Both the position numbers and the translations under genes were made by a program. The notes below the pieces were generated by a model. The model was given only the letters and a program-made list of their open reading frames with translations, was not told the DNA's origin and did not search any database. A stretch of 64,000 bases of DNA from a virus (lineage: Duplodnaviria; Heunggongvirae; Uroviricota; Caudoviricetes). Shown piece after piece: positions 6,144 through 62,793 of this stretch; the stretch's first letter is position 1, and every line of letters begins with the position of its first letter. The stretch is taken from the IMG/VR virus record IMGVR_UViG_2541047860_000002. One strand, given 5' to 3'.

Positions 6144-6642
6144 AGGTTTAACGCCCGCACAACTGGCAGAGCGTAACGCTGAGTATGTAACGGAAATTTC
6201 CCGACTTGAGCAAGAACGCTCGGCGCTGGCGGCGGAGAATGCGGGAATAAAGTCTGCAATTCCAGAATCACGGGATATTGAGGATGACAATGACAATATG
6301 GATGACGTATCTCTCGCGGAAGATTTCGGGTTCAATCATGCAATAGAACTGATGAGGAGACGGATTCCTGAAACTCCGGCCACCGACGCTTTCCTGGCTG
6401 AAGTACGTGCGGAGGCACGCAACGAGGGGATTAACTACACCGCAAGCCGTCTTGCTGCTGCGTTCAATCACGGATTTATCAATAAGTCTTTGCGTGAAGT
6501 TTTCGACGTTACACGCATGATTTTGTCAGCGAAAGAAGAGTTGGCTAATGAACCGCATCCGCTTGATGGCCTGTCCGGTGAATATGCGGAGAAATCCCTA
6601 GAAGAATGGGCGGAACAGATTCGCAAAGGAAGCAGCCAGTGA
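6133..6642 (+). CDS. hypothetical protein (acidic, coiled-coil)
   Basis: 169 aa; start preceded by AAAGGAGAGTGTATG cassette. Confidence 0.5.
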   Translation: MKSEGLTPAQLAERNAEYVTEISRLEQERSALAAENAGIKSAIPESRDIEDDNDNMDDVSLAEDFGFNHAIELMRRRIPETPATDAFLAEVRAEARNEGINYTASRLAAAFNHGFINKSLREVFDVTRMILSAKEELANEPHPLDGLSGEYAEKSLEEWAEQIRKGSSQ

Positions 6643-9225: not shown

Positions 9226-9229
9226 TGAG

Positions 9230-9922
9230 GTGGATCAAAAAATGAAAGAACGCGGGATGATTTTTAACGATGAGATGGTCAGGGCCATCCTCGAAGGAAG
9301 GAAGACGCAGACTCGCCGACCTGTAAAAAATGTCAGGGCCGATAACTGCCTGGTTATCCGTAAACCGACAAAGAAACGCAATGGTGTCTATACCCACGTT
9401 ATGGATGCACCTGAACATGGTTTATGCCCGTTCGGTAACGTTGGTGATCGCATATGGGTCCGTGAGGCGTGGGCGATATTAGGCAATGAGGATGGTTGCA
9501 GTGTGGACTGGAACGACAACCTTTGTCGTGGCGATGAGAAGAACGCAGCAAGGATTTATCGGGCCAGTTGTGAGCAAAAGCCGGGTGATTACGGCTTGTG
9601 GTCGATACCCGATGATGCCGACTGGAAACCTCACACTGTGAATGAAAAATTTGATGGCGGGTGGCGTCCATCAATTCACATGCCGCGCTGGGCATCGCGC
9701 ATTTTGCTGGAAATTACCGACGTGCGTGTGGAACGGCTGCGTGATATGAGCGAGGCAGATGCTAAAGCAGAAGGCGCATCTCCGGCGATGTACAAAATTA
9801 CGCCGCCGGAAGCTGTTTATCGCGTTGGTTTTGGTGATATCTGGCGCAGTATTTACGGGCAGGATAACTGGCTATCTAACCCGTGGGTATGGGTAATCGA
9901 GTTTAAGCGCATTCAGGAATAA
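9230..9922 (+). CDS. conserved phage protein
   Basis: 230 aa; N-terminal FNDEMVRAILEGRKTQTRRP block that I recognise as a common phage signature but cannot assign. Confidence 0.5.
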   Translation: MDQKMKERGMIFNDEMVRAILEGRKTQTRRPVKNVRADNCLVIRKPTKKRNGVYTHVMDAPEHGLCPFGNVGDRIWVREAWAILGNEDGCSVDWNDNLCRGDEKNAARIYRASCEQKPGDYGLWSIPDDADWKPHTVNEKFDGGWRPSIHMPRWASRILLEITDVRVERLRDMSEADAKAEGASPAMYKITPPEAVYRVGFGDIWRSIYGQDNWLSNPWVWVIEFKRIQE

Positions 9923-10005
9923 ACCGTGAGTATGCATCAAATCGTCAGTTTTTCAGGTGGACGAGCATCGGCCTGTCTCGTTCATCTGTTCGAAGAGGTA
10001 GTGGC

Positions 10006-10209
10006 ATGACAATCGTAAAAACCCATACCGGCACCGTGATCACCAAAGACGGTCCGCAGGTAAAAAAACTGCACCAAACAGAGCGGATGTGGGTCGTCGG
10101 CAAAAATGAGTTTTACCACAAAGATACCGGACGCCGCCACTTTGCAGAAAATACGCGCCGTCGACTGCTGTTAGACACCATCAAGCCTATCGAGGTGAAG
10201 CATGTTTAA
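10006..10209 (+). CDS. hypothetical protein
   Basis: 67-aa ORF. Confidence 0.35.
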   Translation: MTIVKTHTGTVITKDGPQVKKLHQTERMWVVGKNEFYHKDTGRRHFAENTRRRLLLDTIKPIEVKHV

Positions 10210-10441
10210 ACAGAACGAAAAAGCTATCGCTCAAATTGCTGATTATATCCCGCGTGCGTGCCGGGGTATGCAGTTGCAGGAAGCCAAAGCGCGCCTGGAG
10301 AAAAAAATTGCGCTCTATATTGATGACGGCTGTGATGCTGCCGTTCTTAACGCGGCGTTCGCACCAGCTCTTAACAGTCATACTCGGGAGTCTTTTTTTT
10401 CGTGCATCGAAGCGCAACTCCGCAAAGGAGGCAACCAGTGA
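10202..10441 (+). CDS. hypothetical protein
   Basis: 79-aa ORF; stop overlaps next start (GTGA). Confidence 0.4.
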   Translation: MFKQNEKAIAQIADYIPRACRGMQLQEAKARLEKKIALYIDDGCDAAVLNAAFAPALNSHTRESFFSCIEAQLRKGGNQ

Positions 10442-17860: not shown

Positions 17861-18201
17861 CGACGCCCCCTTGCAGGATAGCGACCTGCATTAGTATCCG
17901 GTGCAATAAAGCCGGTAGTGGGGCGAGTGAAAGCGAGATTAATCTTCTCGACCATAGTGCGATAATTTTCCTGATAGTGGGCCAGGAGTTTTTCGGCGGC
18001 AATGATGGTTACTTTCCGGACGTAGCTTTCTGCTTCCTCCAGATTTCGCCAGTTTTTTTCGAGGGTAAACACAGGGACGGCCTCAAGCCCGGTCATGATG
18101 CCGAACACAACGACAGCATGACTGTTCTTAACACCAGCGGCGAAGGTTACGGTGTAACCATCCACCTTAAAGCGTCTTGATTCCGTGATTTGACTCTGCA
18201 A
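17857..18201 (-). CDS. hypothetical protein
   Basis: 114 aa; first gene of the minus-strand operon; recurrent motif about 60 bp upstream. Confidence 0.4.
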   Translation of the reverse strand: MQSQITESRRFKVDGYTVTFAAGVKNSHAVVVFGIMTGLEAVPVFTLEKNWRNLEEAESYVRKVTIIAAEKLLAHYQENYRTMVEKINLAFTRPTTGFIAPDTNAGRYPARGRR

Positions 18202-18259
18202 AGCACCCTCCGAAATAGGCGAGGGTACTTTACAGCAAAGATAACAATCTAAAAAGATG

Positions 18260-18276
18260 TGTTAGAAATTTAATTT
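18260..18276 (+). promoter_or_regulatory. recurrent motif TGTTAGAAATTTAATTT
   Basis: Overlaps the stop codon of the recombinase gene; reads TTTCTAACA toward the 17857-18201 operon on the minus strand. Confidence 0.4.
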
Positions 18277-19303
18277 ATGAATCCATCAGGCGGCTATTAG
18301 CCCCCACAGACACGCCGCCACGGCGCAGATACCGCATAAGTGTTTCCGGTTTCTTCCAGGTTCCTTCCTGCATGATCTCCACCATAGACACCTGCTTTTC
18401 TGCCATATCGATAGCAGCCCCGACACGAGCACTATGCCCGGTCCACGTCCGGTATCTCCCCTTGTTTGGAGTGGCATCTCTTTTATTCAGCAACACCCAG
18501 GCGTCACTAAATATTTTCTCCATTGCAGGTGCAGTAAGGGGCGTTGTCGTAATCCTGGCCTTATTGCTACGGTGTATCGGCGGGAACAGCACCGCGTCAG
18601 GATGTTCACGAAGCCCGGAAACATCCAGCCAGTCATTCAGCACAGCAGTAGTGCGACGGGAAAGCACCTTATCAAGCCCGGCGGCGGTCGTTATTGTCTT
18701 CGTGTGTGAAATATGTAGCGTGACAGTGTCACCTGTTTGGTCCAGATCTCCTACACGAATACGCGAGATTTCAGACATGCGCATCAGCGTATTGTATGCA
18801 ACAAAGAGAAAAGCCCGGTTGCGCAGGTCCACCAGCCGTTCTGACCTGGACAACAGGACGTCGAGCAGTTTCAGATCGTCCCACCGCAGCGGTATAGCCT
18901 GGCCTGTTCGTTCGCCTTTTTCCGTTGCCGCTTCACGCCGGATGCGCCGCATAGCCAGAGAAACACTTTTATCATCCGAAAGTGGCGGAAGGCCACAATG
19001 CGAAAGCAGCATGTTCAGCATGGCGTAGTGCTTATCAATGGTGGTCGAAGCCAGATCAGCATCATGCAGCTGAAGAAAATACTCGCGGGCCATCTCTGGA
19101 GAGATCGGGAACCAGGCGAGCTGGCGAGCGTGACACCATCTCGCCCAGGAGTGAAACACTAACCGGAGATCGCGCAAAGTATTAGGCGCGTAAGCCCCCT
19201 GGTCATTCATGAACCGCATAAAGTTTTCTGCGGCCTCCTGGTACTCTTTGCCAATGTTGCGCAGAAAACCACTGGAGCTGCCAGAGATAATTAATTCACT
19301 CAT
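18275..19303 (-). CDS. dre: Cre-family tyrosine site-specific recombinase, Dre-like
   Basis: 342 aa colinear with Cre, including the catalytic region (HSARVGAA ... Y near C-terminus); adjacent 32-bp site matches the rox site I recall for Dre of phage D6. Confidence 0.85.
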   Translation of the reverse strand: MSELIISGSSSGFLRNIGKEYQEAAENFMRFMNDQGAYAPNTLRDLRLVFHSWARWCHARQLAWFPISPEMAREYFLQLHDADLASTTIDKHYAMLNMLLSHCGLPPLSDDKSVSLAMRRIRREAATEKGERTGQAIPLRWDDLKLLDVLLSRSERLVDLRNRAFLFVAYNTLMRMSEISRIRVGDLDQTGDTVTLHISHTKTITTAAGLDKVLSRRTTAVLNDWLDVSGLREHPDAVLFPPIHRSNKARITTTPLTAPAMEKIFSDAWVLLNKRDATPNKGRYRTWTGHSARVGAAIDMAEKQVSMVEIMQEGTWKKPETLMRYLRRGGVSVGANSRLMDS

Positions 19304-19455
19304 GAAACTATTTAACCTCTATATACAGATGACGCTACGCGAAAAATATAAAAATGACAGGGTAGCTATAAGTTAATTTTCAAGATTCAAACCTTTGATT
19401 CGAGGCACGTATTTTCAGTGATGTCAACACTGATCATCCACCCATGATTATAGCT

Positions 19456-19487
19456 TAACTTTAAATAATGCCAATTATTTAAAGTTA
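19456..19487. other. rox-like recombination target site (14-4-14 inverted repeat)
   Basis: TAACTTTAAATAAT-GCCA-ATTATTTAAAGTTA, perfect 14-bp arms, about 150 bp upstream of the recombinase start. Confidence 0.8.
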
Positions 19488-19669
19488 TAAAGTGCCAATT
19501 TTTTTTAATCCATCATAGATTGATGATGACCAGTAACACGTTGCCTTCATGGTCTTTAATTTGCGAAGTGTGGTTTCTACGGTTGGTTTTCTAAAATTGA
19601 TGACAAAAAATCACAGTTCGATCCTTTACTCACTCTGTTATTCGACATAAATTTGTCATAGTAATTTTA

Positions 19670-19686
19670 TGTTAGAAAACTAAATC
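19670..19686 (+). promoter_or_regulatory. recurrent motif TGTTAGAAAACTAAATC
   Basis: Ends 11 bp before the ATG of the 345-aa gene. Confidence 0.45.
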
Positions 19687-19697
19687 GAGTAGGAATA

Positions 19698-20735
19698 ATG
19701 AGTAAGAAGTCGATCGAGAAAGAGTACAAACGGTTCCTGCAAACCGCTGAACGGTGGAAAGAGCTGGTGGTCGCAAACTCTGTTTTCCATGATACCAGTT
19801 ATGCTGGCGAGGAATTCCGCCATGTTGCATTAACGCATGACCAAAACATATTAGAAGAAGCTGAAAAATGTCTTGCTGAATGGAAAGCCTTCGTTGACAT
19901 GTGCCGCGATTCCGACGGCAAAGCGTCGAACATTGTTGAGTCTGTATATTCTCCGATCCCATTCATCATTGAGGACACCAATCAAAGCACGCATGTTGTT
20001 GTGCAAAGCGCTACAACAACACGTACATTTACACGTGAACAATTGCTCAAAAAATACGACAAAATCATAAAGAAAAGCCTGAAAAATAGGGTTTTTTCTC
20101 AAATCGTAGGCGCTCTTGAAGAAGAACAGCGCTTCTTTGAAGCTGAGCCTGAAGGCGAGATCTACCGGGCGCGTAAAGAGGCATATACAGATGTTGTGCT
20201 GACAACAAATATCGAAGGCAGCAATGCCCTTTCTCGCTTTAGAGTTGGCGCACATGGCGCATTGGTTTTCGCAAGACTACCGAAGACAACGATCCCCGTT
20301 GTCAATAATGTTGGTGAACGCCGGAGCATTACAATTTATTCTGGCGTCGAATCGGTACCTTGCAGCCTTCTCGGCGATTTTAACTTATATCGTGTTCGTG
20401 ACCTGGAAAAACACCAGCCAAGCTACGTTGCGAAGTCGTACATCTTAAGGAACATCGATATTCGCAATGAAAGCCTTAAGCAGAAATCCGCTAAGATGCT
20501 GGAGGATGCCGATCCGGCTATTCGCCATATCATTGAGCGTAAGATACGTACATCACGTGAAGCAATGGCAAGGCTGGATAAAATGGATCTGGAATTGTTA
20601 GACGTAATGATGGCCTCTGGAGACGACCTGACCGGCATTAAACTGAATGAAGCTCGTAAAAAATACGGCAAAGCAATCGAAGAACGTTACGGATACACAT
20701 TCCCCCAAACGCAGTACGCCGCGAAGCTCTGGTAA
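19698..20735 (+). CDS. hypothetical protein; positional candidate for the immunity repressor
   Basis: 345 aa, no recognised motif; lies between the rox site and pacB where P1-type phages carry c1; recurrent motif directly upstream. Confidence 0.45.
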   Translation: MSKKSIEKEYKRFLQTAERWKELVVANSVFHDTSYAGEEFRHVALTHDQNILEEAEKCLAEWKAFVDMCRDSDGKASNIVESVYSPIPFIIEDTNQSTHVVVQSATTTRTFTREQLLKKYDKIIKKSLKNRVFSQIVGALEEEQRFFEAEPEGEIYRARKEAYTDVVLTTNIEGSNALSRFRVGAHGALVFARLPKTTIPVVNNVGERRSITIYSGVESVPCSLLGDFNLYRVRDLEKHQPSYVAKSYILRNIDIRNESLKQKSAKMLEDADPAIRHIIERKIRTSREAMARLDKMDLELLDVMMASGDDLTGIKLNEARKKYGKAIEERYGYTFPQTQYAAKLW

Positions 20736-20744
20736 TCACAACCG

Positions 20745-20767
20745 GCCCCGCATCGCGGGGCTTTATA
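20745..20767. terminator. bidirectional rho-independent terminator
   Basis: GCCCCGC-ATC-GCGGGGC hairpin plus T-run between convergent genes. Confidence 0.55.
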
Positions 20768-22271
20768 TATCCAGATCAGGCATTTCGATATCCGCCAGAA
20801 CCTGATCTCGGAAAGTTGCCATTTCGGCACCAATATCTTCATTAGCAGGCACATAGTCCACCAGCATAGTGAAGCAGTAGGTATCCCATCGGTCAGGCGA
20901 TTTGATGTTTAGCTTTTGCCGCATGTGCTCTTTGCGCATCATCGCCATTTTCCCTTCTTCATTCAGTAAAAAGGGGATTTTTGACGCTTGCTCTGCCGTT
21001 TTAGGGTCACTGTCTATCCGCATACGCCCTGACTTTATGGCATCACGCGCCATAATATTTGCGTAGGCACGCTGATTAACAAATCGCTCCCTGTCTTTGT
21101 TCGCAAACATGGGTTTTCCCCACCGAATACGTACCGGGTTCGCACCACGACGCACCAACTGCGCACACGTATCAGAACCAAAACCATCAGCATCAACCGC
21201 GATTGTTATATTCGGGTATTTTTCCGGCGTACATTCGTTATATATGAAGTCAGCAAAGGCCAATGGGTCCATAGTGCCAGGCATCTCCATTACCTTAAAG
21301 TTAACAACGCGACGCTTATCCCTGTGACCAGATACCTTGCAGATGTTGAGGACCGACTTATCTCGCCCATTACCAACGTCAGCCGTTGCCACCCATCCCC
21401 AGTTTTTCTCCAACAACACCTTGCGGCGAGCAGCGCGATCGCATTCATCACGACCAAGCAAATAGCCGTTAATTTCTCGTGGGAACTGACCAAGCACCTT
21501 GACCATGTACTCAATAGAATCGCGCCCGCCATATTCCAGAAGCTTCTGCTTGATGAATTGTGGTGTGACGAACGGTGATTCTTCCGAGTTAAGAACAATT
21601 GCTGTCCAGATCCCTTTCGGGTTGTCTGGGGTTTTTGCTTGAGAATGGTGCGAATCGTAGAAATAACCACTTGGCCTTGTTGGCTGGGATAGCATCAACA
21701 TCCGGTTATCTTCTTCAGTAAGAGCACCGGTCATTACGCCGATCGCCTTATCAGATATACCAGATGCTTCGTCCAGAATTAGAAGCAAATGTGCCGCGTG
21801 TTCCCCCGCCAGCGCTTCTTCGTTGCCGAGTCGATAACCTTTGCAGAGAACTTCCCAAATCCCCTTACGGGAGCGCTCATAAAACATGGTGTCAGAGAGG
21901 ACAAAATAGGTCTGCAACCACCCATGACGCTTAACTGCATTCGCCCAATACTGTTTAACGTATTTGAATACGCCTGTTTTTACCTGGCCTATCTTGTTAG
22001 CAACAATGATGACACGGGCATCGGGGAACAGGATCATAAAAATCAACAGCAACATCGCGGTAAGGGACGACTTCCCCGTTCCGTGTCCGGACGTGACGGT
22101 CGTCCTACTCCCCGTTTCCTGCACTGACTGAATGATCTGCTGCTGCTGGTGGGAGGGGAACATCCCAAAAATATCGACAACAGCCTGGGTAAAGTTGTAG
22201 CGGTATTTGATTACCATATCGCGCCAGCGTGGATCGCTGGTGACGCATTTAATCTTGCGCCCGCCAGCCAT
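20763..22271 (-). CDS. pacB: terminase large subunit (PacB-like)
   Basis: 502 aa with Walker A (SGHGTGKS) and a C-terminal nuclease-like region; immediately downstream of the pacA-like gene. Confidence 0.75.
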   Translation of the reverse strand: MAGGRKIKCVTSDPRWRDMVIKYRYNFTQAVVDIFGMFPSHQQQQIIQSVQETGSRTTVTSGHGTGKSSLTAMLLLIFMILFPDARVIIVANKIGQVKTGVFKYVKQYWANAVKRHGWLQTYFVLSDTMFYERSRKGIWEVLCKGYRLGNEEALAGEHAAHLLLILDEASGISDKAIGVMTGALTEEDNRMLMLSQPTRPSGYFYDSHHSQAKTPDNPKGIWTAIVLNSEESPFVTPQFIKQKLLEYGGRDSIEYMVKVLGQFPREINGYLLGRDECDRAARRKVLLEKNWGWVATADVGNGRDKSVLNICKVSGHRDKRRVVNFKVMEMPGTMDPLAFADFIYNECTPEKYPNITIAVDADGFGSDTCAQLVRRGANPVRIRWGKPMFANKDRERFVNQRAYANIMARDAIKSGRMRIDSDPKTAEQASKIPFLLNEEGKMAMMRKEHMRQKLNIKSPDRWDTYCFTMLVDYVPANEDIGAEMATFRDQVLADIEMPDLDI

Positions 22272-23635
22272 TAATCATCCTCCGGCGGTTCTATCGCGAT
22301 ATCATCATCTCCGGCGTCATACCCTGCATCAGATGCATCATAATCACCGTAAATTTCAGCCGTTGCCGAAGGGTCAATATCCAGCTCTTCGTCGTTGGCC
22401 TCGAATTCTCCAGCTTTACGCTCGCCATTGCGGTCGTAATCTCCGCACCCCAATTCTTCAACAATGGTTGCCACATCCGCCCGGCGCTCTGCCAGCCATT
22501 GCGGATGGTTAGCCTGAAGCGTTGCAAACTCCCTTGCCTCTTTGTCCAGCTGTTCATCATCAACATCATTGACGTCAGAAACAGGTGGTTCGAGAAGAGT
22601 GATAGCTTTCGCCGCGCGCGCCGCGAGGATAGCCGGGACGCTGACCCCCTGGCGCTCGATGTATTCAGCAACACCGATATCATCCAGTTCCTCGCGCTCA
22701 CGCATACGTATAGCGGCGGCGATAACTCTGGCAGCGCGTGCGTCAGCGCCAATGCGATATTCAATCTCTTTGCCACGCTGTTCGGCCTGTAGGCGTGCTA
22801 ATTCGAGTTTTTCTCTGGCCTCAGCCTCTTTGAATGCTTGCTGGCGAGCGCTCTGACGAAGCTTTTCATCCCCCTGTCGCAGCTTTTGTTCGGACTGATA
22901 TATAGCTGCCAACCTACTGATAAAATCATTCATGTAGTAGGCCGCGTCACTGATTAGACCGAGAAGGCGCTGCCCAGGGTGCATTCCTTCTGGCTCTTTA
23001 TCGCCCAAGGCGTCTATTTCCGCCTGTAGACGTTCGGCCTCCTGATCAACAATGCTTTGATACTGAAGTGCGCGCTCTTGCGCCATTTGAATTGCTAACC
23101 GCAGGTGTTCTTCTGCGCCGTTCTTCATCATGTCGCGAGCCACATTCGTAGTGGGCAATGTGGCACGTTGCACAGCACCGCCAGGGATCATTGCTGAAGA
23201 TCCCTCAATTTTTGGGGCGCTTTTATCTTCTTCGGGGATCATTTTCGCCATTTTTTCGCGCAATGATCTCCTGACAGATTCTTTTATCTCATTGTTATTA
23301 TTTGCATTATTTTCATGATCCGAAGTTTTCTTTCTCGGCATACTTCGGAAAGAACCTGCGCCCTGCGAATTGTCAATTTCTGTAAATTTTGTTTTTTCTG
23401 CACCCTCTTCCAGCTTTTTTGTTGCTCTTCCCGCCCGTTTTTTTTCAGGTGATTTGGTGCTTTTTTTTGTTGTCTTTACCTGCGACCGCACCTCATTTTT
23501 TTTCATATTGAGATGCTTTCTGGCTGTATTGAAGCTAAGGCCATGCTCCTCACAGTATTCCTTTACAGTGATCCCTTTTTCTTCACGCAACGCTATAAAG
23601 CGGGCGCGGTGCTCCTCCCAATTAACCAGACTCAT
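22271..23635 (-). CDS. pacA: terminase small/pac-recognition subunit (PacA-like)
   Basis: 454 aa with N-terminal HTH-like segment and acidic C-terminus; start overlaps upstream gene; carries a GATC cluster (candidate pac site). Confidence 0.6.
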   Translation of the reverse strand: MSLVNWEEHRARFIALREEKGITVKEYCEEHGLSFNTARKHLNMKKNEVRSQVKTTKKSTKSPEKKRAGRATKKLEEGAEKTKFTEIDNSQGAGSFRSMPRKKTSDHENNANNNNEIKESVRRSLREKMAKMIPEEDKSAPKIEGSSAMIPGGAVQRATLPTTNVARDMMKNGAEEHLRLAIQMAQERALQYQSIVDQEAERLQAEIDALGDKEPEGMHPGQRLLGLISDAAYYMNDFISRLAAIYQSEQKLRQGDEKLRQSARQQAFKEAEAREKLELARLQAEQRGKEIEYRIGADARAARVIAAAIRMREREELDDIGVAEYIERQGVSVPAILAARAAKAITLLEPPVSDVNDVDDEQLDKEAREFATLQANHPQWLAERRADVATIVEELGCGDYDRNGERKAGEFEANDEELDIDPSATAEIYGDYDASDAGYDAGDDDIAIEPPEDD

Positions 23636-25630: not shown

Positions 25631-25784
25631 AGATTACTGTTAATTCCGCTTACGCTTTTTGCCAGGACCGCGTAAGGCTTTTGCTGCTTGCTCGACCCCA
25701 TATGCAACCACCAGCAGAAATAAAAATGTCCACCAAGGGTTCTTGTCGGCAAACGTCCAAAATTCCATCATGTTATCTATTTGG

Positions 25785-26612
25785 TTATTTCACCGGAACA
25801 AACGGAACAGCGGTATTACTGGTCATATACTGCGGTAGCGTTCCGTTCCATTTGTTGATCGCTTCCAACTCCATAACGCCGGGGTTCTGGCGCAGAGCCT
25901 CACCGCGTAAACGAATGGCATCAGCTTCAGCCTGGGCTTTTGTGCGAATGGCATCGGCCTGTCCAGCAGCTTCTGCGCGCAGCATGTTGGCTTCTGCTTC
26001 GCGTTGCTTGACTTCCTGCTCGCGTTGCAGAGTTTTCTGGTTCGCCGTGACTTTGGCATTAATGCTGTCGATAACGGTTGGCGGGTACTCCGGCTTGCCC
26101 ACATATGAGAGGCTCATTACCTGAATACCGATGGGCGTCATTTCTTCCTGAATGTCTTTAAGGGCTGCATCAAGCAATTCAGATTTGCCACCGTCGATAA
26201 ATTTGTCGGTGGTCATTTTGCTGGCTAACCGGTTCAGAGCATCTGCAACCTTCTGGCGTAGATCGGTATCAGTAATATCATCTACACCTTTGCGATAGGT
26301 CTGAAATACCGTTGTGACTTTTGCTGGATCAACCTTGTAGGCTACGCCGATGTGGTAACCAATGGTTGTTCCGTCGCTCATCTGGAAGCTGAACGGCTCA
26401 TCGTATGTCTTCATTTGCTTAAAGGTCGGGAAGATATAAACTTCAGTATTCAAGCCTGTCCAGTAGCGACCAACGCCAACTACTTCACCGATACCTTTAT
26501 CATCCCCCAGCTTATTTACTTTGATCCCTACGTTACCTGGCTCTACCCGATCGCATCCGGTCAGACATAAAGAACCAAAAATAATCGCTGCACTAATCAA
26601 CGTTTTTTTCAT
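25785..26612 (-). CDS. SPFH/band-7 domain lipoprotein
   Basis: 275 aa; lipobox LCLTGC after signal peptide; prohibitin-like core and C-terminal coiled coil. Confidence 0.7.
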   Translation of the reverse strand: MKKTLISAAIIFGSLCLTGCDRVEPGNVGIKVNKLGDDKGIGEVVGVGRYWTGLNTEVYIFPTFKQMKTYDEPFSFQMSDGTTIGYHIGVAYKVDPAKVTTVFQTYRKGVDDITDTDLRQKVADALNRLASKMTTDKFIDGGKSELLDAALKDIQEEMTPIGIQVMSLSYVGKPEYPPTVIDSINAKVTANQKTLQREQEVKQREAEANMLRAEAAGQADAIRTKAQAEADAIRLRGEALRQNPGVMELEAINKWNGTLPQYMTSNTAVPFVPVK

Positions 26613-26829
26613 TAATCAATTTCCTGGTTTTTTCACGAAAAAAGACTACTGCAAAAGCCGGGTAAATGAGCGCGAGAAGGACTCCCAACAATACAAGTAT
26701 TGTGCTGTCAGATGAGATCATATTTGGCAAAAGCCAAACATACAGAACCAGTGACACAATCAAACAGAGGACGACATAAATATATAACCGCACCCATAGC
26801 GTTCGACATTTGTTCGGATTGTTCTGCAT
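26593..26829 (-). CDS. small membrane protein
   Basis: 78 aa with two hydrophobic helices; overlaps the lipoprotein gene start. Confidence 0.4.
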   Translation of the reverse strand: MQNNPNKCRTLWVRLYIYVVLCLIVSLVLYVWLLPNMISSDSTILVLLGVLLALIYPAFAVVFFREKTRKLINEKNVD

Positions 26830-27092
26830 CCTCTCACTCCATTATTTACCGAATAAAAAAGCTGCGGTGCCTGGTGCCTCCAGGTGACGTTAACCAGTTA
26901 ACAATTAACGCCGGGATGTTTGACTTAACCACTAAGGAGGATTGTTTTAACTGTTCCGCGTGCGCTTAGCCGCATTCACCGCAATGGTAAGAGCACTTGG
27001 CTGGCTGGGCGGCGATGACGCCTGTACGCATTTGGTGATCCGGTTCTGCTTCCGGCATTCGCTTAATTAGCCAAATACTCTTAACGTTGCAC

Positions 27093-53743: not shown

Positions 53744-54754
53744 TTAAACGCTCGCTACATTATACCAGGTGCCATTTATATACTTTTGAACGGGTCTGTA
53801 ATAAACGCCCGCTATATTATCGGCAGAGTTGGACCCTGTATCCTGAACATTAATACCAGACAATACATGACCTGACGGGCACTGGAAATTCCATGTTTGC
53901 CAGTTGTTTACTCCATAATATTGCTGTGAACCAAGTCGAACATCTTTCACATAACGGGAATCAAAGTTACCGTAATCCGAGGGATTAACACGCCCTGTAA
54001 TATTTATGGTTTTATTACTTTGAATGCTGCCGGAGACAAAGCGCATAACATGGACGTTATTAGCATAAACGTCCAGATTACCGTCGCCATTTTGTTTAAA
54101 GCCCGTGTCATTATCACCCAAAACAATCGAGTTACCGCCAAGAGCACTGGATGTTCCGATACCCAATGCACCATTCAATTGACCGCCAGATAATGACAAC
54201 GCCCCAACCTCAGCAGCAGTCGGTTTAATGTGCGAACTGTAAATTACATATACAGTTCCATCTGTCAGGCCTGTTGGTTTATTCGCTGTATAAGTTGGTG
54301 ATGTATGAATTTGTACAGTTGCATCCTTTGTATAATCCCACTGGATATTAACACCTGTGGCGTAATTACCTATTTTTACATAAATGTCATAGGTATCACC
54401 GGATGTATTCACCCATGCAAAATTAGTAAATCCAACCGAGGTCCGTCGCCATAATGCACCAGTAAGACCTTTTGGATTTCCATTTCCCGCACGAAGAACA
54501 AGTTCAGATATACCAGCCTGCATAGGGGAGTTAACATTATATCCAGCACCACCAATCAGACTTATGTAAACCACGGAACTGGCTTGTGGCATTGTTACAG
54601 TTGCCAGTTTGAACCATCCAGCACCACCACTAAAAGACATGGTTGTTGAATTTGTTGTGCCGATATTACGCAGGAATAGTTTTTTATCGGGAATATCTGC
54701 GCCGTTCTGGTTTTTCTGTAATGCGCCAGAAGCCTGATTTACCGTTTCCTGCAA
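53744..54754 (-). CDS. tail fibre variable C-terminal segment (alternative), no constant part attached
   Basis: 336 aa from a TTG inside the right cix site; a stop lies 3 codons upstream; shares the [12 protein letters not shown] block with the other variable segment. Confidence 0.65.
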
Positions 54755-54771
54755 ACCGAGGTTTTAGATAA
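54746..54771. other. cix/gix-like inversion crossover site (right)
   Basis: TTCCTGCAAACC-GA-GGTTTTAGATAA, close to the Mu gix sequence as recalled. Confidence 0.7.
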
Positions 54772-54825
54772 TGGCCGTTTCTGACCTGCATGGCATGATT
54801 TACGCTTTTGGACGGGAGATTCAGC

Positions 54826-55413
54826 GTGCTGATTGGCTATGTAAGGGTATCAACAAATGACCAGAATACAGACCTGCAACGAAACGCTCTTGTTTGTGCA
54901 GGATGTGAACAAATATTTGAAGATAAATTAAGCGGGACAAAGACAGACCGACCGGGATTAAAACGCGCTTTAAAGCGCCTTCAAAAAGGTGACACGCTGG
55001 TTGTCTGGAAACTGGATCGCCTCGGGCGAAGCATGAAACATCTGATTTCTCTCGTCGGGGAACTACGGGAGCGAGGGATTAATTTTCGCAGTCTGACCGA
55101 CAGCATAGATACATCTTCTCCAATGGGACGTTTTTTCTTCCACGTGATGGGTGCCCTGGCTGAAATGGAACGTGAATTAATTGTTGAACGTACACTGGCC
55201 GGACTGGCAGCAGCGCGCGCACGGGGGCGCACAGGCGGACGTCGCCCGAAGCTGACAAAAGAACAGCATGAGCAAATAGCAAGGCTGATTAAAAACGGTC
55301 ACGACAGAAAACAACTGGCAATAATTTACGGCATTGGTACATCGACGATTTATCGTTACCACCCCGCAGGAGAATCAAGCGGAACAATAGAGAAGAGTCA
55401 GAAAACAAAATAA
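54826..55413 (+). CDS. serine DNA invertase (Pin/Gin-like), copy 2
   Basis: Probable GTG start giving (M)LIGYVRVSTNDQ; catalytic-serine and HTH regions conserved; the track ORF starts at an upstream TTG (54808). Confidence 0.9.
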   Translation: MLIGYVRVSTNDQNTDLQRNALVCAGCEQIFEDKLSGTKTDRPGLKRALKRLQKGDTLVVWKLDRLGRSMKHLISLVGELRERGINFRSLTDSIDTSSPMGRFFFHVMGALAEMERELIVERTLAGLAAARARGRTGGRRPKLTKEQHEQIARLIKNGHDRKQLAIIYGIGTSTIYRYHPAGESSGTIEKSQKTK

Positions 55414-55441
55414 CCGCTAATCTGACCATTAGCGGTTTTTG
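55412..55441. terminator. bidirectional rho-independent terminator
   Basis: AACCGCTAAT-CTGACC-ATTAGCGGTT hairpin plus T-run between convergent genes. Confidence 0.65.
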
Positions 55442-55448
55442 TGTTAAA

Positions 55449-55943
55449 TCAGAACAGCCCTTTAACTGAACTGGCCGCGCTGTTAAGAGATGATGTCACC
55501 TTATCTTTGAAGCCGGACAGCATATCGCTGAACGATGAGGATTGCAGGCGCTCCCGCAAATCCTCATCACAGCGTTCAAGGGTCAGTGAAAATTCTATCT
55601 TTTTCGCCTTACCGTAGCGATCAAACTCGGAACGGGTCGTATTCGTTCCGGTCAGGACATACATGCCGTAAATCTGCCCGACGCCATCAATCAAAGGCCA
55701 GGGTCGTCCTGTATACGCCTGCGTGGTCAGCAGCGACAGCGACACTTCGCCACCTGTAATTTCAGGATAAAGCACACCAGAAAGAACGATGCGATCATCA
55801 CCTGCACCGATATACTGCCAGCTTGCTGAACGGTTAACGCGTTCATTTTTCACATGCCGCCAGCTTTTGTTTTGCTGTAACTGCTGATGCGGCAGCGTGC
55901 GCAGCTCAAAAACAAACATGCCGTAGATCATCATCATGGCCAT
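55449..55943 (-). CDS. P2 gpU-like tail protein
   Basis: 164 aa with the WQY.GAGDD ... LSG.LYPE.TGG block I associate with P2 gpU. Confidence 0.75.
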   Translation of the reverse strand: MAMMMIYGMFVFELRTLPHQQLQQNKSWRHVKNERVNRSASWQYIGAGDDRIVLSGVLYPEITGGEVSLSLLTTQAYTGRPWPLIDGVGQIYGMYVLTGTNTTRSEFDRYGKAKKIEFSLTLERCDEDLRERLQSSSFSDMLSGFKDKVTSSLNSAASSVKGLF

Positions 55944-55949
55944 GACTCC

Positions 55950-58757
55950 TCAATCTTTATCGTAAAAACTGCCACGCCCGGCACGGGCGCGCCGTTCCAT
56001 TTCTGCCCTGACCATTTCACCGACCAGTTTCGCCAGTTCGCGGGGATTCTGTGTAACAACGTTATGCAGATGAACATGAATTTCACCGCCAAATCCGGAG
56101 GCAACAGGCTCCCGGTTACGGGAAGTTGCAGGAACTGATGCCACTGGCGATCGTATGGCCTCCGCCACCGGGCGGGAGCTGGCCGCAACAACAGGGACCA
56201 GCGCCGGAGGCAGCGGAGCCGGAACCACGGGTGTGATATTAATTGCGGGGGCAGGCTTACTGACCTGCGCAATCTTCCGCTCCTGCCACTCCCCACGAAC
56301 AGCAAGTGCGCGGGGCAGGTTCTTAAAGACAATATCGCCGGGGCCAATGCGTTTTTTCGTCTCATCAACCAGCTTACCTGTGTTATCAGCAATTTTGCTG
56401 AGTCTGCGTAGCGTCCCGGTATTGCTGTCTGTGAGCGGTTTGTTGTCTTTGGGTTTATCACCTCCGGTGCCATTGCCATTTTCCACAGGCTTCGGCGGAT
56501 TGATTTTCGCCAGGTCCCCCTGAAGCAAGGCAACCTTGTCCTGAAGAATGGCCGCACGCTGTGCGTCTTCGATTTTCTTGCGCGCCCTTTCCGCTTCATC
56601 CGGAAGGACGCCAAGTTTTTCAAGTATCCACGCCAGCGTATCCAGTAGCATTTTTGCAGGTGTCAGAACAAGTTGTAACGCACCGCCAAGAACGTTACCG
56701 AATATCTCGCCAGCACTGGTACATTTATCCAGAGTTTCCTTGCTGGATTCCATCGGTGACAGCAGCGATTTAAACCAGTTAAACACCTGGCTGATCCCGC
56801 TTCCGATTGCGTCAAAAACAGGACCAAACCGTTCAAAGGTTTCGCGCAACGGGGTCAGCCTTTCCATAATCCCGCTGAACACCCCGGCAAAAAATGCCCT
56901 GATGGGATCCCAGTATTTCCAGATAAGAACGGCAGCTCCGGCAAGCGCAGCCACGATAAGACCAACCGGACTGAACAACGCCCCGATGGCGCCTCCCAGT
57001 AAAGAAACGGAACCCGTCACCATTCCCCACAGCGCAGGCAACGCCCTGACGACATTCATTGACCGGGTAAGAATGTCAAAACCAAGACGCAGGGTGGCCA
57101 GCTTCCCGTAAAGCACCCCAATAACCAGCGACAACGAGCCAATCGTTGCAGTCATTGCCAACAACGCACCGCCTGCTATCAGTAGCTGGCGCGTCAGTAC
57201 CGGATGGGCCTGCGCCAGCGAGGTGATTTTTTCAAGCACCCGCGTGAGCCACTGCGTGACAGAACGCAGCGGACCGTCAACCAGATCACTGATGCGAATA
57301 CGAAGACCTTCCCATGCGCTGTCGAGATTTTTCAGGTCCCCATCAAGATTATCGGCCATTACTTTTGCAACGCGATCGGACTCTCCCCTTGCCCCCTGCA
57401 ATTCTCTGGTCAGTTTTTGCAGCTCTCCTGAACCAGCCGCCGCAACAAGCGTCTGCAAACCAACGAACGCCTCTTCTCCGGCGATGTCCTTGAAGAAGGA
57501 AACCTGGTCCACCTGTCCGTATTTTTGTGTCGCCTTATAGAGATCAAGCAGCACATCCTCCATCGGGCGCATTTTGCCTCTGGCGTCAGCAACTGACACC
57601 CCCAGCTCTTTCAGTGCATCAGCCGCAGCTTTTGGCGGTGATGCAAGGCGGGACAGACTTGCGCGCATGGCCGTACCAGCATCGCTTCCACGAAGACCAT
57701 TATTGGCAAGCATCCCGGCCATAGCTGCCGCTTCTTCAAGACTGATACCAAGTTTTGCGGCAACCGGACCGGTATACTTCATGGTTTCGCCCAGCGCGCG
57801 TAAATCAGTATTGGTCCGGGTGAATGCCGCTGTCAGCGTATCGCCAACCCGGTCCATTTGATCGGCTGTCAGGTTGAACTGTGTGAGGATATTGGAGCCT
57901 ATATCAGCCGTCTCGCCGAGTTCGACGCCACCTGCCAGCGCCATATTAAGAACACCGGGCAATGCGGCCTGAATGGCCTGCGGAGTAAAACCAGCCATTG
58001 CCAGAAAGCTCTGCCCACTGGCGGCATCACTCGCAGTAAACTGTGTTTCAGAGCCAAGTTTTAACGCCTGCTCACGCAGCGCCTTAAACTGCGGGCTGTT
58101 TTTGTCGATTCGCGTCAGCGCCTGAACGCGGGACATCTCTTTGCCGAACCCGATCGCGGGCTGCAAAAAACGCCCGGCAGCATAGCCGCCCGCCGCTGCC
58201 GCACCAATTGCCAGCGCACCACCTGTTTTCAGTTTTCCCGCGGTTTCCTGCGCGCGCGAATACCGCTCACGCGCCCGCGTTACACGCGCAAGCGCCTGCC
58301 GTTCGCGTTCAAGCTGGTTGTTGTACTGTTCGGTGCGTCTGATGGCCTGCTGGATGGTGTTATCGCTGCCTGTCAGGGAAATGCCGTGGCGTTTCAGTTC
58401 TCCGCCAATCTCCCGCATTTTCTGAATTTCCCGTGTGCGCGATTCATTCAGGCGTTCAAGCCGGGTGCTTAACTGCTGCATCAGCTTTTGTTGTTTTTCG
58501 CTGAGCACTGTACCCGTGCGTTGTAACTGATTAAGGGCGTTAAGCTGGCGTCGTGCTTTCACGATGCCCGCATCCGCTTTACTGACAGCGTCACGGGCGC
58601 GCTCAAATGAACGCGCCTGACGCTCGAGATTTTTGATCGCCCCCTGCGTTCGCTGGATGGAGTCACCAAACTGCCCCATCAGGCGGCGGGCGTTTTCGGC
58701 AGGCCGGGTCAGCCTGTCAACGGCGCTGAAAGCGACCCGGATATCAAGAGTCTTCAT
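55950..58757 (-). CDS. tail tape measure protein
   Basis: 935 aa, coiled-coil N-terminus, Gly/Ala-rich hydrophobic core; directly after the E/E-prime chaperone genes. Confidence 0.85.
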   Translation of the reverse strand: MKTLDIRVAFSAVDRLTRPAENARRLMGQFGDSIQRTQGAIKNLERQARSFERARDAVSKADAGIVKARRQLNALNQLQRTGTVLSEKQQKLMQQLSTRLERLNESRTREIQKMREIGGELKRHGISLTGSDNTIQQAIRRTEQYNNQLERERQALARVTRARERYSRAQETAGKLKTGGALAIGAAAAGGYAAGRFLQPAIGFGKEMSRVQALTRIDKNSPQFKALREQALKLGSETQFTASDAASGQSFLAMAGFTPQAIQAALPGVLNMALAGGVELGETADIGSNILTQFNLTADQMDRVGDTLTAAFTRTNTDLRALGETMKYTGPVAAKLGISLEEAAAMAGMLANNGLRGSDAGTAMRASLSRLASPPKAAADALKELGVSVADARGKMRPMEDVLLDLYKATQKYGQVDQVSFFKDIAGEEAFVGLQTLVAAAGSGELQKLTRELQGARGESDRVAKVMADNLDGDLKNLDSAWEGLRIRISDLVDGPLRSVTQWLTRVLEKITSLAQAHPVLTRQLLIAGGALLAMTATIGSLSLVIGVLYGKLATLRLGFDILTRSMNVVRALPALWGMVTGSVSLLGGAIGALFSPVGLIVAALAGAAVLIWKYWDPIRAFFAGVFSGIMERLTPLRETFERFGPVFDAIGSGISQVFNWFKSLLSPMESSKETLDKCTSAGEIFGNVLGGALQLVLTPAKMLLDTLAWILEKLGVLPDEAERARKKIEDAQRAAILQDKVALLQGDLAKINPPKPVENGNGTGGDKPKDNKPLTDSNTGTLRRLSKIADNTGKLVDETKKRIGPGDIVFKNLPRALAVRGEWQERKIAQVSKPAPAINITPVVPAPLPPALVPVVAASSRPVAEAIRSPVASVPATSRNREPVASGFGGEIHVHLHNVVTQNPRELAKLVGEMVRAEMERRARAGRGSFYDKD

Positions 58758-59282
58758 TATCTACATTCCCGCTGCGAAGTGCCGCCCGCTCACGCCAGCT
58801 AACCACTTCGCCGGGCGTCATCATGAAGATTTCGGCGGGCGACCAGTTAAAAATGGCGGCGATATCTGCCACCAGATCTTCGATGTGCTCAAAGCACACC
58901 AGGGTGATTACGCTGCCGTCTCCTGCACGCTCTTCGCGCCAGAGTCTGGCTCGCTCATAAAATTTACAGCCACAGCGCACAACTGAATAAAATCGCGTGA
59001 CGACATTTTTTTAATCATCACTTCATCCAGTCGTGGCGAGGTCACGCGAGGCAACAGCGTGAACATGGTATCCGCTTTCAGATTCAGCACATCAGACAGC
59101 GACAGACCACGCAGGGATCCAGCCTGTTCAATAGCCCCGGTGATCTCCACATACGTGATTTTTTCGCCACCACGCTCAATTGGTCGGGTCAGTTTTACGC
59201 CACGTTCGACAGCCATATCCTCACCTGCCGTCACATCATCCGCCACGGTGTTATTCCGGGTTTCAGTATCGATGTCTTTCAT
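58744..59282 (-). CDS. tail assembly chaperone E plus E-prime fusion via -1 programmed frameshift
   Basis: gpE ORF is 58908-59282 (124 aa); the -1 frame is open from the A7 tract at 59006-59012 to 58744 and overlaps the tape measure start. Confidence 0.65.
59006..59012 (-). other. slippery heptanucleotide (AAAAAAA on mRNA) for the E/E-prime -1 frameshift
   Basis: Covers Lys91-Lys92 of gpE; shifting back one nt continues into the E-prime frame. Confidence 0.6.
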
Positions 59283-59337
59283 CAGTTGTCTCCTTTTCAG
59301 TCAGAGGCGACGCACTGCGCCGCCTGCATATTACTTA

Positions 59338-59850
59338 TCAGCCAAGCCCGAGCGCGGAACGGATGCGATCGGGCACAATGTCCTTGCCGTCCTTCCGGTA
59401 AATGAAGTTCAGCAGGTCAATCTCCCACAACGGGCGATCGTTAACACTCAGCTTGTAGTAGGTGTTTTTAATGGCGTAAGTGTGTGATGTGGCTTCGCCC
59501 TGTTTGGCTTCCCCCATATCAATTTCCGTCACACGTCCGCGCATTTCGACTTCATACAGGTCGCTTTCTGCATCGGTGTAGTATTCACCCGCAAAACGCA
59601 GCAGCGTGCCGTCAATCGTGCCGCCATACTTAAGGAACAGCTCACGAACTGCGCCCCCCATGACAAAGCTCGCATCAAGCGCGGAGTCGTCCAGACCGAG
59701 ATCAATACTTACCGCACCCATCATGCCACCACCCCGGTAGCTGTCGGTTTTGCGCGTCAGCTTAGGCAGAGTGACGGACGTCACCTTACCCACTTCGTTT
59801 TCACCATCCACAAACAGCGTAAAAAAGCGAAGATGTTTTGGTACAGCCAT
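59338..59850 (-). CDS. tail tube protein (P2 FII-like)
   Basis: 170 aa directly downstream of and coupled to the sheath gene. Confidence 0.8.
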   Translation of the reverse strand: MAVPKHLRFFTLFVDGENEVGKVTSVTLPKLTRKTDSYRGGGMMGAVSIDLGLDDSALDASFVMGGAVRELFLKYGGTIDGTLLRFAGEYYTDAESDLYEVEMRGRVTEIDMGEAKQGEATSHTYAIKNTYYKLSVNDRPLWEIDLLNFIYRKDGKDIVPDRIRSALGLG

Positions 59851-61034
59851 CAGGCACCTCCCAGCACCGCAAATGCGGGACCAAAGAATTCATCAGTAAA
59901 CGACTGGTAAAGCTCCATGTCTTCCAGCGGGGGAACAGGCGTATATTTGTAGCGAATACGCACGCGCCCCTGACGTAAATTCGTGGTGCCGTTATCCACC
60001 ACGTCATACCAGCACGACGCCCCAATCAGTTTCCCGGCAGTAACCAGTGAATCCAGTTTTGCCCTGATGGCACTGATAACATCTTTCACGTTCGCAGGCG
60101 TCAGTGGACTGTCGATGGTTTCAAACTGCGCTTCCGCAATTGAATCAGCCAGCACCTGTGCGGTTCGGGTATACACCTCAAAGATGTAGGCGTTCGTTTC
60201 CGGTGTGCGGTTGCCCCAGAAGCGGAACCCATTGCGACGAATAATGGTCGTGATTTCTTTGTTGTTGAGGCTGTTGGCATCGCTGTCTTCGGCCTGCAAC
60301 GACCAGAACACATGCCTCGACATCCCCAGCACATTTTTAACCGGAACGTTGGACAGTGATTTGTGCCAGCCCTGCTCATGGTCAATGTACGCACGAAGGC
60401 CGCACGCATAGGCAGGCGCGGGGAACGTTTCGTTTTTGCCACTTTTCGGGTTGTAGGCAATGAAGTCCGGCCATAAGAGCATCACCTCACGTTCGTTGAA
60501 TTTCTGGCGGTAGGTAATCGCCTCAGCCATCGTGTTACAGCCGTAACATGAGGCATACACAAACGCGCGCAGTTTACCTGCAATCACGCACAGGGATTTT
60601 GTTACAGCCTCCGTGTCCAGCTCCGGCGCGGCCAGAATACGCGGACGGTATCCGATGCTTTCATCCTGCTCTGCAACAAGCAGCGCATACATCCCCGTAT
60701 AGCTGCCGTCAGATTCAGAGCCACCGATAACCAGTTGATCCTGCGTCTTTCCGTCTTCTTCTTTGTGTTCAGCCACGCGAACGACGATCACCTTTGTGCT
60801 CACCTGGTCTGCGATGGCCTTAAGCGCACGATAAAGCGTCCCCGTTGTCCCGCATTTTCCCAGCACGTCATTGACGCGGGTCAGCAGTGTGGGCTTGTTC
60901 AGCGGGAACAGCTCTGCGTCCGCATCATCCGCCGTTGCCACGATACCGATAACACTGGAGTCAACATCATTAATCGCTGTTACCAGGTCGGTACTTTCCG
61001 TGACACGGGCACCATGAAAACGAGTTTCACTCAT
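59850..61034 (-). CDS. tail sheath protein (P2 FI-like)
   Basis: 394 aa, contractile-sheath size; first gene of the FI-FII-E-T-U block. Confidence 0.85.
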   Translation of the reverse strand: MSETRFHGARVTESTDLVTAINDVDSSVIGIVATADDADAELFPLNKPTLLTRVNDVLGKCGTTGTLYRALKAIADQVSTKVIVVRVAEHKEEDGKTQDQLVIGGSESDGSYTGMYALLVAEQDESIGYRPRILAAPELDTEAVTKSLCVIAGKLRAFVYASCYGCNTMAEAITYRQKFNEREVMLLWPDFIAYNPKSGKNETFPAPAYACGLRAYIDHEQGWHKSLSNVPVKNVLGMSRHVFWSLQAEDSDANSLNNKEITTIIRRNGFRFWGNRTPETNAYIFEVYTRTAQVLADSIAEAQFETIDSPLTPANVKDVISAIRAKLDSLVTAGKLIGASCWYDVVDNGTTNLRQGRVRIRYKYTPVPPLEDMELYQSFTDEFFGPAFAVLGGA

Positions 61035-61191
61035 AGCTTCAGCCCCTTGTATCCGTTAAATGATTCGGCAACAATCATCACCCACCACGCGCGTAATCTC
61101 ACCCCTGCGCCGTTCTCCCGCCACGGCGACAACAAAAAGCAGTAACCCCCTCCGCACGCACATGCGACCATGCCGCACAGGGAGGGAACAG

Positions 61192-62301: not shown

Positions 62302-62343
62302 GCAACTTAGAATAGCGGCAGCACCACGTTAAGGGAGGTCGCT

Positions 62344-62604: not shown

Positions 62605-62793
62605 CAGGCAGAATTGCCGGAGTAACAAAAAAGCGATAGATTACGTGCGGGTGCCTTTCGGCTGATGGTCGGAGGGAATACCCGAAGGCCAGATGTGGAA
62701 AGGCCCCGGAAAACATTTCTGTTTAACCGAGGCCCTAACCCGTCAACCTAGCAAGTGATAGGTTAGCGCCTCTCCAACAAAGGAGCAAGCGCT

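What the first reader, a model, noticed from the sequence alone, without database searches (positions are those of the whole stretch)
18275..19487. Cre-family recombinase with an adjacent site matching the Dre rox sequence
The recombinase is colinear with Cre, but the nearby perfect inverted repeat has 14-bp arms and a 4-bp spacer rather than the 13-8-13 of loxP; the sequence matches the rox site I recall for Dre of phage D6. This places the element in the D6 lineage and identifies its dimer-resolution or circularisation module.
Basis: partly seen in the sequence, partly recalled or inferred. Interest (0 to 1): 0.5.

Follow-up and report, generated by a model that had tools for sequence, protein, structure and literature searches.

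The report
Dre recombinase and its rox site
This is the already well-known Dre recombinase gene with its 32-bp rox target site, sitting in a close relative of phage D6 that lives as a plasmid in E. coli and Salmonella; it is ordinary, apart from a possible promoter built into the site.

Summary
The ORF at 18275..19303 (minus strand, 342 aa) is 341/342 identical to Dre of phage D6 (only G11S) and identical to RefSeq WP_001292235.1. It is 41% identical to P1 Cre, colinear with it, and keeps all six Cre catalytic residues. The perfect 14-4-14 palindrome at 19456..19487 matches the annotated D6 rox and the published rox at 32/32 positions, and occurs once in the window. Gene order is pacA-pacB-c1-rox-dre, as in D6. 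About 79% of the window aligns colinearly with D6, at about 96% weighted identity. It is therefore a D6-like phage-plasmid, a group found in more than 100 public plasmids.

The function is inferred from P1 Cre/lox: resolving plasmid multimers and circularising terminally redundant infecting DNA. Dre/rox recombination itself is published.

One addition: the only 11/12 match to the sigma-70 consensus in the 64 kb lies on the dre strand and overlaps rox. Its -35 (TTGGCA) covers the crossover core and its -10 (TATAAT) starts 3 bp outside the site. That -10 is unchanged in seven rox-bearing upstream regions spanning four Dre identity groups (70-100%), although the flanking bases differ. This suggests Dre may repress its own promoter, which is untested.

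Novelty: already known. Interest is low.

The parts
18275..19303 (-). dre: Cre-type tyrosine recombinase, 342 aa, S11 allele, identical to WP_001292235.1
   Evidence: ORF. It is 341/342 identical to D6 Dre and identical to the CDS in NZ_AP022217.1. PF00589 match. Catalytic residues R175, K202, H290, R293, W316 and Y325 align with Cre R173, K201, H289, R292, W315 and Y324.
19456..19487 (.). rox: the 32-bp Dre recombination site. The arms are 19456-19469 and 19474-19487. The asymmetric core 19470-19473 reads GCCA on the + strand and TGGC towards dre.
   Evidence: It is 32/32 identical to the annotated D6 rox and to the published rox. It stays 32/32 in relatives whose Dre is 88-94% identical and whose intergenic DNA is about 71-78% identical.
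19447..19474 (-). Putative sigma-70 promoter pointing at dre and overlapping rox. The -35 TTGGCA is at 19474..19469 and covers the rox core. The 16-nt spacer is mostly the dre-proximal arm. The -10 TATAAT is at 19452..19447, 3 bp outside rox. This is a hypothesis.
   Evidence: It matches 11 of 12 consensus positions. It is the only match of 11/12 or better on either strand of the 64 kb, and 1.9% of shuffles of the intergenic region give one on this strand. TATAAT at rox+3 is invariant in all seven aligned rox-bearing upstream regions, while the 3 nt before it and the bases after it vary.
19304..19446 (-). dre leader and upstream region. It holds a conserved TTGACA (19427..19422) next to a GATC (19432-19435), and a conserved block (about 19328-19375) that includes TTCGCGTAGCG, also found upstream of cra in P1.
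   Evidence: Alignment A3 and the P1 sequence. No Rfam match and no unusual RNA structure, z = +1.3.
19698..20735 (+). c1-type prophage repressor gene on the other side of rox (context)
   Evidence: ORF. Annotated c1 / prophage repressor in the D6 records.
20763..23635 (-). pacB (20763..22271) and pacA (22271..23635) terminase genes. pacA contains a GATC cluster at 23186-23317, a candidate pac site about 3.7 kb upstream of rox along the pacA-to-dre direction.
   Evidence: ORFs, D6 annotation, GATC cluster. P1 has the same layout, with pac at 90804-90813 and lox at 94784-17.

Best explanation
This is the Dre/rox site-specific recombination module of a D6-like phage-plasmid. Dre is a Cre-type tyrosine recombinase. 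One monomer binds each 14-bp arm of rox, and two rox sites with four Dre monomers form a synapse. Tyr325 cleaves and rejoins the strands in two steps through a Holliday junction. The asymmetric centre (TGGC towards dre) gives the site its direction. In the element's life cycle the module most likely does what Cre/lox does in P1. It resolves plasmid-prophage multimers into monomers so that each daughter cell inherits a copy. It also circularises injected, terminally redundant DNA when rox lies within the redundancy. Shown here: the identity of the protein and the site, intact catalytic residues, synteny, and very strong conservation of the site. Published for D6: Dre recombines rox and does not act on lox. 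Inferred: the biological roles, and the cleavage positions inside rox.
For: - **Protein:** it is 341/342 identical to D6 Dre and identical to WP_001292235.1.
- **Site:** rox is 32/32 identical to the annotated and published sites.
- **Catalytic residues:** the R-K-H-R-W-Y set is intact, PF00589 is matched, and the closest solved structures are all Cre.
- **Synteny:** the order pacA-pacB-c1-rox-dre matches D6. It parallels P1 pacA-pacB-c1-lox-cre, where pac lies about 4 kb from lox. A candidate pac site lies about 3.7 kb from rox here.
- **Element:** about 79% of the window aligns colinearly with D6. The 3-kb locus matches 153 PLSDB plasmids (119 over at least 80% of it), and 122 of the 125 matching places in complete E. 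coli genomes are on plasmids.
- **Conservation:** rox is invariant in lineages whose flanking DNA is only about 71-78% identical.
- **P1 precedent:** the role of Cre/loxP in keeping the plasmid monomeric is stated in PMC2409434.
Against: - Nothing functional was tested for this allele (G11S) or this element.
- The roles in multimer resolution and circularisation are carried over from P1, and I could not read any paper that tests them for D6.
- The pac site is only a GATC cluster, not a mapped site.
- The extent of terminal redundancy in D6-like virions is not known from these data.
- The replication and partition genes of the element lie outside the window.
Confidence: 0.93

Rival explanations
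1. rox has a second role as the operator of a dre promoter. RNA polymerase using the -10 TATAAT (3 bp outside rox) and the -35 TTGGCA (over the rox core) must cover the whole site. Dre bound to rox would then shut off its own transcription and keep recombinase levels low in the lysogen. This adds to the main explanation rather than replacing it.
For: - The match is 11/12 on the dre strand.
- It is the only match of that quality in 64 kb, and 1.9% of intergenic shuffles give one.
- TATAAT keeps its position at rox+3 in all seven aligned rox-bearing upstream regions, whose Dre proteins fall into four identity groups (70-100%). The 3 nt between (AGC, GGC, GTA, TCA, GGT) and the downstream bases vary.
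- P1 also has an annotated promoter, P4cre, reading through lox towards cre.
Against: - This is a consensus match with conservation only. There is no transcript or binding data.
- The whole-window shuffle expectation for matches of 11/12 or better is 1.2, so the match alone is not remarkable.
- The -35 weakens in natural core variants: TTAGCA, TTGGAG and TGGGGA.
- The 55%-identical relatives L077 and L078 lack the TATAAT at this position.
- Other conserved upstream blocks could hold the real dre promoters.
- I could not read Sauer and McDermott 2004 or Gilcrease and Casjens 2018, so the promoter may already have been described.
Confidence: 0.3
2. The pair is an integrase with its attP and inserts the element into the host chromosome.
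For: Pfam names the catalytic domain 'Phage integrase'. Three of the 125 matching places in complete E. coli genomes are on chromosomes.
Against: - The site is a simple 32-bp palindrome identical to a Cre-type site that needs no accessory arms.
- The protein is Dre, and no arm-binding domain was found.
- 122 of 125 places are on plasmids of about 90 kb.
- D6 is deposited as a circular plasmid-prophage genome.
Confidence: 0.02
3. The module is an inactive relic in this particular element.
For: The allele differs from tested D6 Dre at G11S, and no activity data exist for it.
Against: - The ORF is intact with all catalytic residues.
- Residue 11 lies before the region that aligns with Cre, which starts at residue 22.
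- The same allele recurs in a RefSeq plasmid and an IMG/VR contig.
- The site is perfectly conserved.
Confidence: 0.03

Closest known systems
Dre/rox of Escherichia phage D6 (AY753669, MF356679; Sauer and McDermott 2004, as cited in PMC4777119)
   Same: The protein is 341/342 identical and the 32-bp site is 32/32 identical. The dre ATG lies 152 bp from rox in both. The gene order pacA-pacB-c1-rox-dre is the same.
   Different: There is one conservative change (G11S). There are 12 substitutions in the 152 bp between rox and dre, including the base directly next to rox (T here, C in D6). The host element is a mosaic relative, with about 79% of the window aligned to D6, not D6 itself.
Cre/loxP of phage P1
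   Same: The fold family is the same, the alignment is colinear, and the six catalytic residues are identical. The genomic position between c1 and the recombinase gene, about 4 kb downstream of pac, is the same. The presumed roles are the same.
   Different: Identity is only 41%. The site is 14-4-14 rather than 13-8-13, and no loxP is present in the window. There is no cra gene between the site and the recombinase. P1's promoter that reads through lox (P4cre) lies outside lox, whereas here the candidate promoter overlaps the site.
Other Cre-type pairs used as tools (VCre/VloxP, SCre/SloxP, Vika/vox, Nigri/nox, Panto/pox)
   Same: Each is a single-protein tyrosine recombinase acting on a short palindromic site next to its gene (PMC3082901, PMC3553980 and PMC4957104, listed).
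   Different: They have different proteins and sites, and none is relevant to membership here.

Membership tests
Dre/rox (phage D6 type) | Protein essentially identical to D6 Dre and clearly closer to it than to other Cre homologues | tested here: met
   341/342 identical to both D6 records, against 41% to Cre
Dre/rox (phage D6 type) | 32-bp site TAACTTTAAATAAT-TGGC-ATTATTTAAAGTTA (14-4-14) | tested here: met
   32/32 identical to the annotated rox and to the published sequence. Geometry confirmed.
Dre/rox (phage D6 type) | Site lies between c1 and dre in the immC region (pacA-pacB-c1-rox-dre) | tested here: met
Dre/rox (phage D6 type) | Dre recombines rox without other phage proteins and does not recombine lox | not testable with these tools
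   The paper text retrieved here says Dre recognises and recombines rox and reports no cross-reaction between Dre and Cre on each other's sites. That no other phage protein is needed comes from my recollection of Sauer and McDermott 2004, which I could not read. Nothing has been tested for the S11 allele.
Cre-type tyrosine recombinase | Catalytic domain with the R-K-H-R-W-Y residues | tested here: met
   PF00589 at 62.6 bits against a cut-off of 27.1. R175, K202, H290, R293, W316 and Y325 are present.
Cre-type tyrosine recombinase | N-terminal helical core-binding domain | tested here: inconclusive
   PF02899 scores 21.6 bits, just under its cut-off of 22.3. Residues 22-130 nevertheless align colinearly with the Cre N-terminal domain.
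Cre/loxP of P1 itself | 13-8-13 loxP site and a protein near-identical to Cre | tested here: not met
   No loxP within 3 mismatches, and 41% identity to Cre
D6-like circular plasmid prophage | Genome-wide colinearity with D6 | tested here: met
   50.7 of 64 kb aligned, with the main blocks at 92-99% identity. The best plasmid matches are about 92 kb and 99.7% identical over the locus.

The most novel reading that the evidence does not exclude
The rox site also serves as the operator of a conserved dre promoter, with the -35 over the crossover core and the -10 starting 3 bp outside the site. Dre would then repress its own synthesis by binding its recombination site. In P1 the annotated promoters lie outside lox, so this arrangement would be specific to the D6 lineage. 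A by-product of the survey is a set of natural rox core variants (TAGC, GGGG, TGGA). A 55%-identical relative also carries a new 14-6-14 site. These may be ready-made orthogonal recombinase/site pairs.
Probability: 0.3. Interest if true: 0.4.

Novelty: already known. Interest (0 to 1): 0.15.

Why it matters
Public records label the protein just 'tyrosine-type recombinase/integrase', and the plasmid records read here list no rox feature (those tables may not carry such features). If the promoter inside rox is real, it has a practical consequence. rox sites placed in bacterial constructs would carry a strong outward-reading promoter that Dre could switch off. It would also be an example of a Cre-type recombinase controlling its own expression through its recombination site.

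Tried and rejected
- **Papers not held:** I tried to read Sauer and McDermott 2004, Gilcrease and Casjens 2018 and Lobocka et al. 2004. Statements about them come from papers that cite them or from record annotations.
- **Literature on a rox promoter:** a search for a promoter in rox or Dre autoregulation found nothing relevant.
- **Genome-contig scan:** the scan with a Dre/Cre alignment returned only Cre-like and remote relatives, with no further Dre lineages.
- **loxP promoter idea:** I considered that the TATAAT inside loxP might be an equivalent promoter element facing cre. I rejected this because in P1 that hexamer faces away from cre.
- **Conserved TTGACA:** the TTGACA at 19427..19422 has no acceptable -10 at 16-18 nt, so I did not call it a promoter.
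- **Adjacent direct repeat:** the 24-nt repeat next to rox (19479-19502, 75% identical, D1) is not conserved in other lineages and is treated as chance.
- **RNA in the dre leader:** there is no Rfam family and no unusual RNA fold.
- **Not done:** I did not predict a structure or run the large protein searches, because near-identity to Dre already settled the question.

Full report
**Observation.** The window holds a 342-aa ORF on the minus strand at 18275..19303. A perfect inverted repeat lies 152 bp upstream of its ATG. The arms are 14 nt and are separated by 4 nt, at 19456-19469 and 19474-19487 (I2). The 32-mer TAACTTTAAATAATGCCAATTATTTAAAGTTA occurs once in the 64 kb even with 3 mismatches allowed, and none of 100 shuffles gave a match.

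**Identity of the protein.**
- Pfam finds the tyrosine-recombinase catalytic domain PF00589 at 62.6 bits, against a cut-off of 27.1. It also finds a borderline N-terminal SAM-like domain, 21.6 bits against 22.3.
- The protein is 341/342 identical to Dre in both phage D6 records, AAV84949 and ASR76376. The only difference is G11S.
- It is identical to WP_001292235.1 on E. coli plasmid pWP8-S17-ESBL-05_2 and to one IMG/VR contig.
- It is 41% identical to P1 Cre and colinear with it over residues 22-341.
- R175, K202, H290, R293, W316 and Y325 align with the Cre catalytic residues R173, K201, H289, R292, W315 and Y324.
- The sequence search of solved structures (E ≤ 0.001) returned only Cre and engineered Cre derivatives, and no Dre chain.

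**Identity of the site.**
- The 32 bp match the misc_recomb feature 'rox' of AY753669 at every position. The flanks do not: 12 substitutions lie in the 152 bp between rox and dre.
- PMC3082901 prints rox as (A)TAACTTTAAATAAT TGGC ATTATTTAAAGTTA(G). This is the reverse complement of the window's + strand.
- PMC4777119 describes the 14-bp arms and 4-bp asymmetric spacer. It argues from mutagenesis that the functional crossover region is about 8 bp, as in loxP.
- No loxP is present in the window.

**Context.**
- Gene order is pacA (22271..23635, -), pacB (20763..22271, -), c1 (19698..20735, +), rox, dre. This is the order in the D6 immC region and parallels P1 pacA-pacB-c1-lox-cre.
- BLAST of the whole window against the D6 genome aligns 50.7 of 64 kb colinearly. 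The main blocks are 92-99% identical, and unrelated segments lie between them.
- The 3-kb locus matches 153 PLSDB plasmids from Escherichia, Salmonella, Shigella and Enterobacter, 119 of them over at least 80% of its length; the listed best matches are mostly about 90 kb. The best hits are 99.7% identical.
- It matches 120 of 5426 complete E. coli genomes, with 122 of 125 places on plasmids.
- D6-like plasmid prophages are an already described group (PMC6799933).

**How it most likely works.** Dre is a Cre-type tyrosine recombinase. By homology, one monomer binds each arm, two sites synapse with four monomers, and Tyr325 carries out two ordered strand exchanges through a Holliday junction. The asymmetric TGGC centre sets the direction of the site. 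That Dre recombines rox, and that Dre and Cre do not cross-react on each other's sites, is published work as cited in the papers read here. That Dre needs no accessory proteins comes from my recollection of Sauer and McDermott 2004, which I could not read.

The biological role is inferred from P1, where Cre/loxP resolves plasmid multimers and so stabilises inheritance (PMC2409434). By established P1 knowledge it also circularises terminally redundant infecting DNA. The geometry fits here. P1 pac lies in pacA about 4 kb before lox. In this window pacA contains the only dense GATC cluster, five sites in 132 bp at 23186-23317, about 3.7 kb before rox in the same direction. That cluster is only a candidate pac site.

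**Conservation.** I collected relatives from PLSDB and IMG/VR.
- The 32-bp rox is unchanged in elements whose Dre is 88-94% identical and whose intergenic DNA is only about 71-78% identical.
- In an Enterobacter plasmid whose Dre is 70% identical, both arms are unchanged and only the core differs, TAGC instead of TGGC.
- Other natural variants exist. These are a distal-arm variant TAACTTTAGATAAT, a GGGG core, and a TGGA core with an arm change.
- Two IMG/VR contigs encode a 55-56% identical recombinase. The palindrome at the same position is different: ATAACTTTATATAA-TGTCAG-TTATATAAAGTTAT. I did not find this sequence in the paper library.

**An addition to the finding.** The consensus scan finds one sigma-70-like site in 18100-19800. 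It lies on the dre strand and matches 11 of 12 positions. The -35 TTGGCA is at 19474..19469, which covers the rox core plus one base of each arm. The 16-nt spacer is mostly the dre-proximal arm. The -10 TATAAT is at 19452..19447, 3 bp outside rox.
- It is the only match of 11/12 or better on either strand of the whole window.
- Block shuffles of the window give 1.2 such matches on average. Shuffles of the 394-bp intergenic region give one on this strand 1.9% of the time.
- Across the seven aligned rox-bearing upstream regions, TATAAT stays at rox+3. Their Dre proteins fall into four identity groups (70-100%). The three bases between it and rox (AGC, GGC, GTA, TCA, GGT) and the bases after it vary.

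Any polymerase using this -10 must cover rox, so bound Dre should block it. I therefore propose, as a hypothesis only, that Dre represses its own promoter. Several points count against it:
- The -35 weakens in the core variants.
- The 55% relatives lack the element.
- Other conserved upstream blocks may hold the working promoters.
- There are no transcript data.
- I could not read the two primary D6 papers.

P1 has an annotated promoter, P4cre, that reads through lox towards cre but lies wholly outside lox.

**Rivals.**
- An integrase/attP reading is very unlikely. The site is a simple Cre-type palindrome, no arm-binding domain is found, and carriers are plasmids.
- An inactive relic is unlikely, given the intact catalytic residues, the recurrence of the allele and the perfect site.
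- Chance is excluded.

**Verdict.** This is the known Dre/rox module in a D6-like phage-plasmid, so it counts as already known and of low interest. The promoter overlapping rox and the natural site variants are the only points worth a follow-up.

Noticed in passing
window 574, 4344, 4998, 8174, 19583, 19669, 24102, 29049, 30298, 41244, 42447 (15-nt sites): The motif TTRGTTTTCTAAMAT occurs 11 times with up to 2 mismatches, against 0.67 expected. Two inverted copies flank the c1 upstream region (19583-19597 and 19669-19683), and one lies just upstream of the lpa homologue. It resembles the core of the P1 C1 operator. These are probably the C1 operators of the D6 lineage.
   Followed up: partly
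window 23186-23317 (inside pacA): This is the only cluster of five GATC sites within 200 bp in the 64 kb. The sequence contexts resemble the TGATCA/G hexamers of the P1 pac site. It is a candidate pac site about 3.7 kb from rox.
   Followed up: partly
L032:1857-1888, L047, L051, L071, L072 (arm variant); L033 and L076 (core TAGC); L018/L063 (core GGGG); L073 (core TGGA with arm change): Natural rox variants occur in relatives. Core variants would be expected not to recombine with wild-type rox.
   Followed up: partly
L077 and L078, about 1330-1365 (site) and 1501-2529 (gene): A 342-aa recombinase 55-56% identical to Dre has a different palindrome at the same upstream position: ATAACTTTATATAA-TGTCAG-TTATATAAAGTTAT. 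The sequence is intermediate between lox and rox arms. It was not found in the paper library.
   Followed up: partly
window 19328-19375: A conserved block upstream of the dre ATG (CCTGTCATTTTT..TTTTTCGCGTAGCG) is kept even with the 70%-identical Dre. The TTCGCGTAGCG core also lies upstream of cra in P1. This suggests dre sits where cra starts in P1.
   Followed up: no
window 6246-6626, 9228-10426, 25773-26862, 53789-64000: These segments have no or only weak matches to the D6 genome. They are mosaic replacements relative to D6 and were not examined.
   Followed up: no
window 19479-19502: A 24-nt direct repeat of the left part of rox lies immediately next to it, 75% identical (D1). It is not conserved in other lineages and is probably chance.
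   Followed up: yes
E. coli complete genomes: Three of the 125 places matching the dre-rox-c1 region are on chromosomes rather than plasmids. Whether these are integrated copies or something else was not checked.
   Followed up: no
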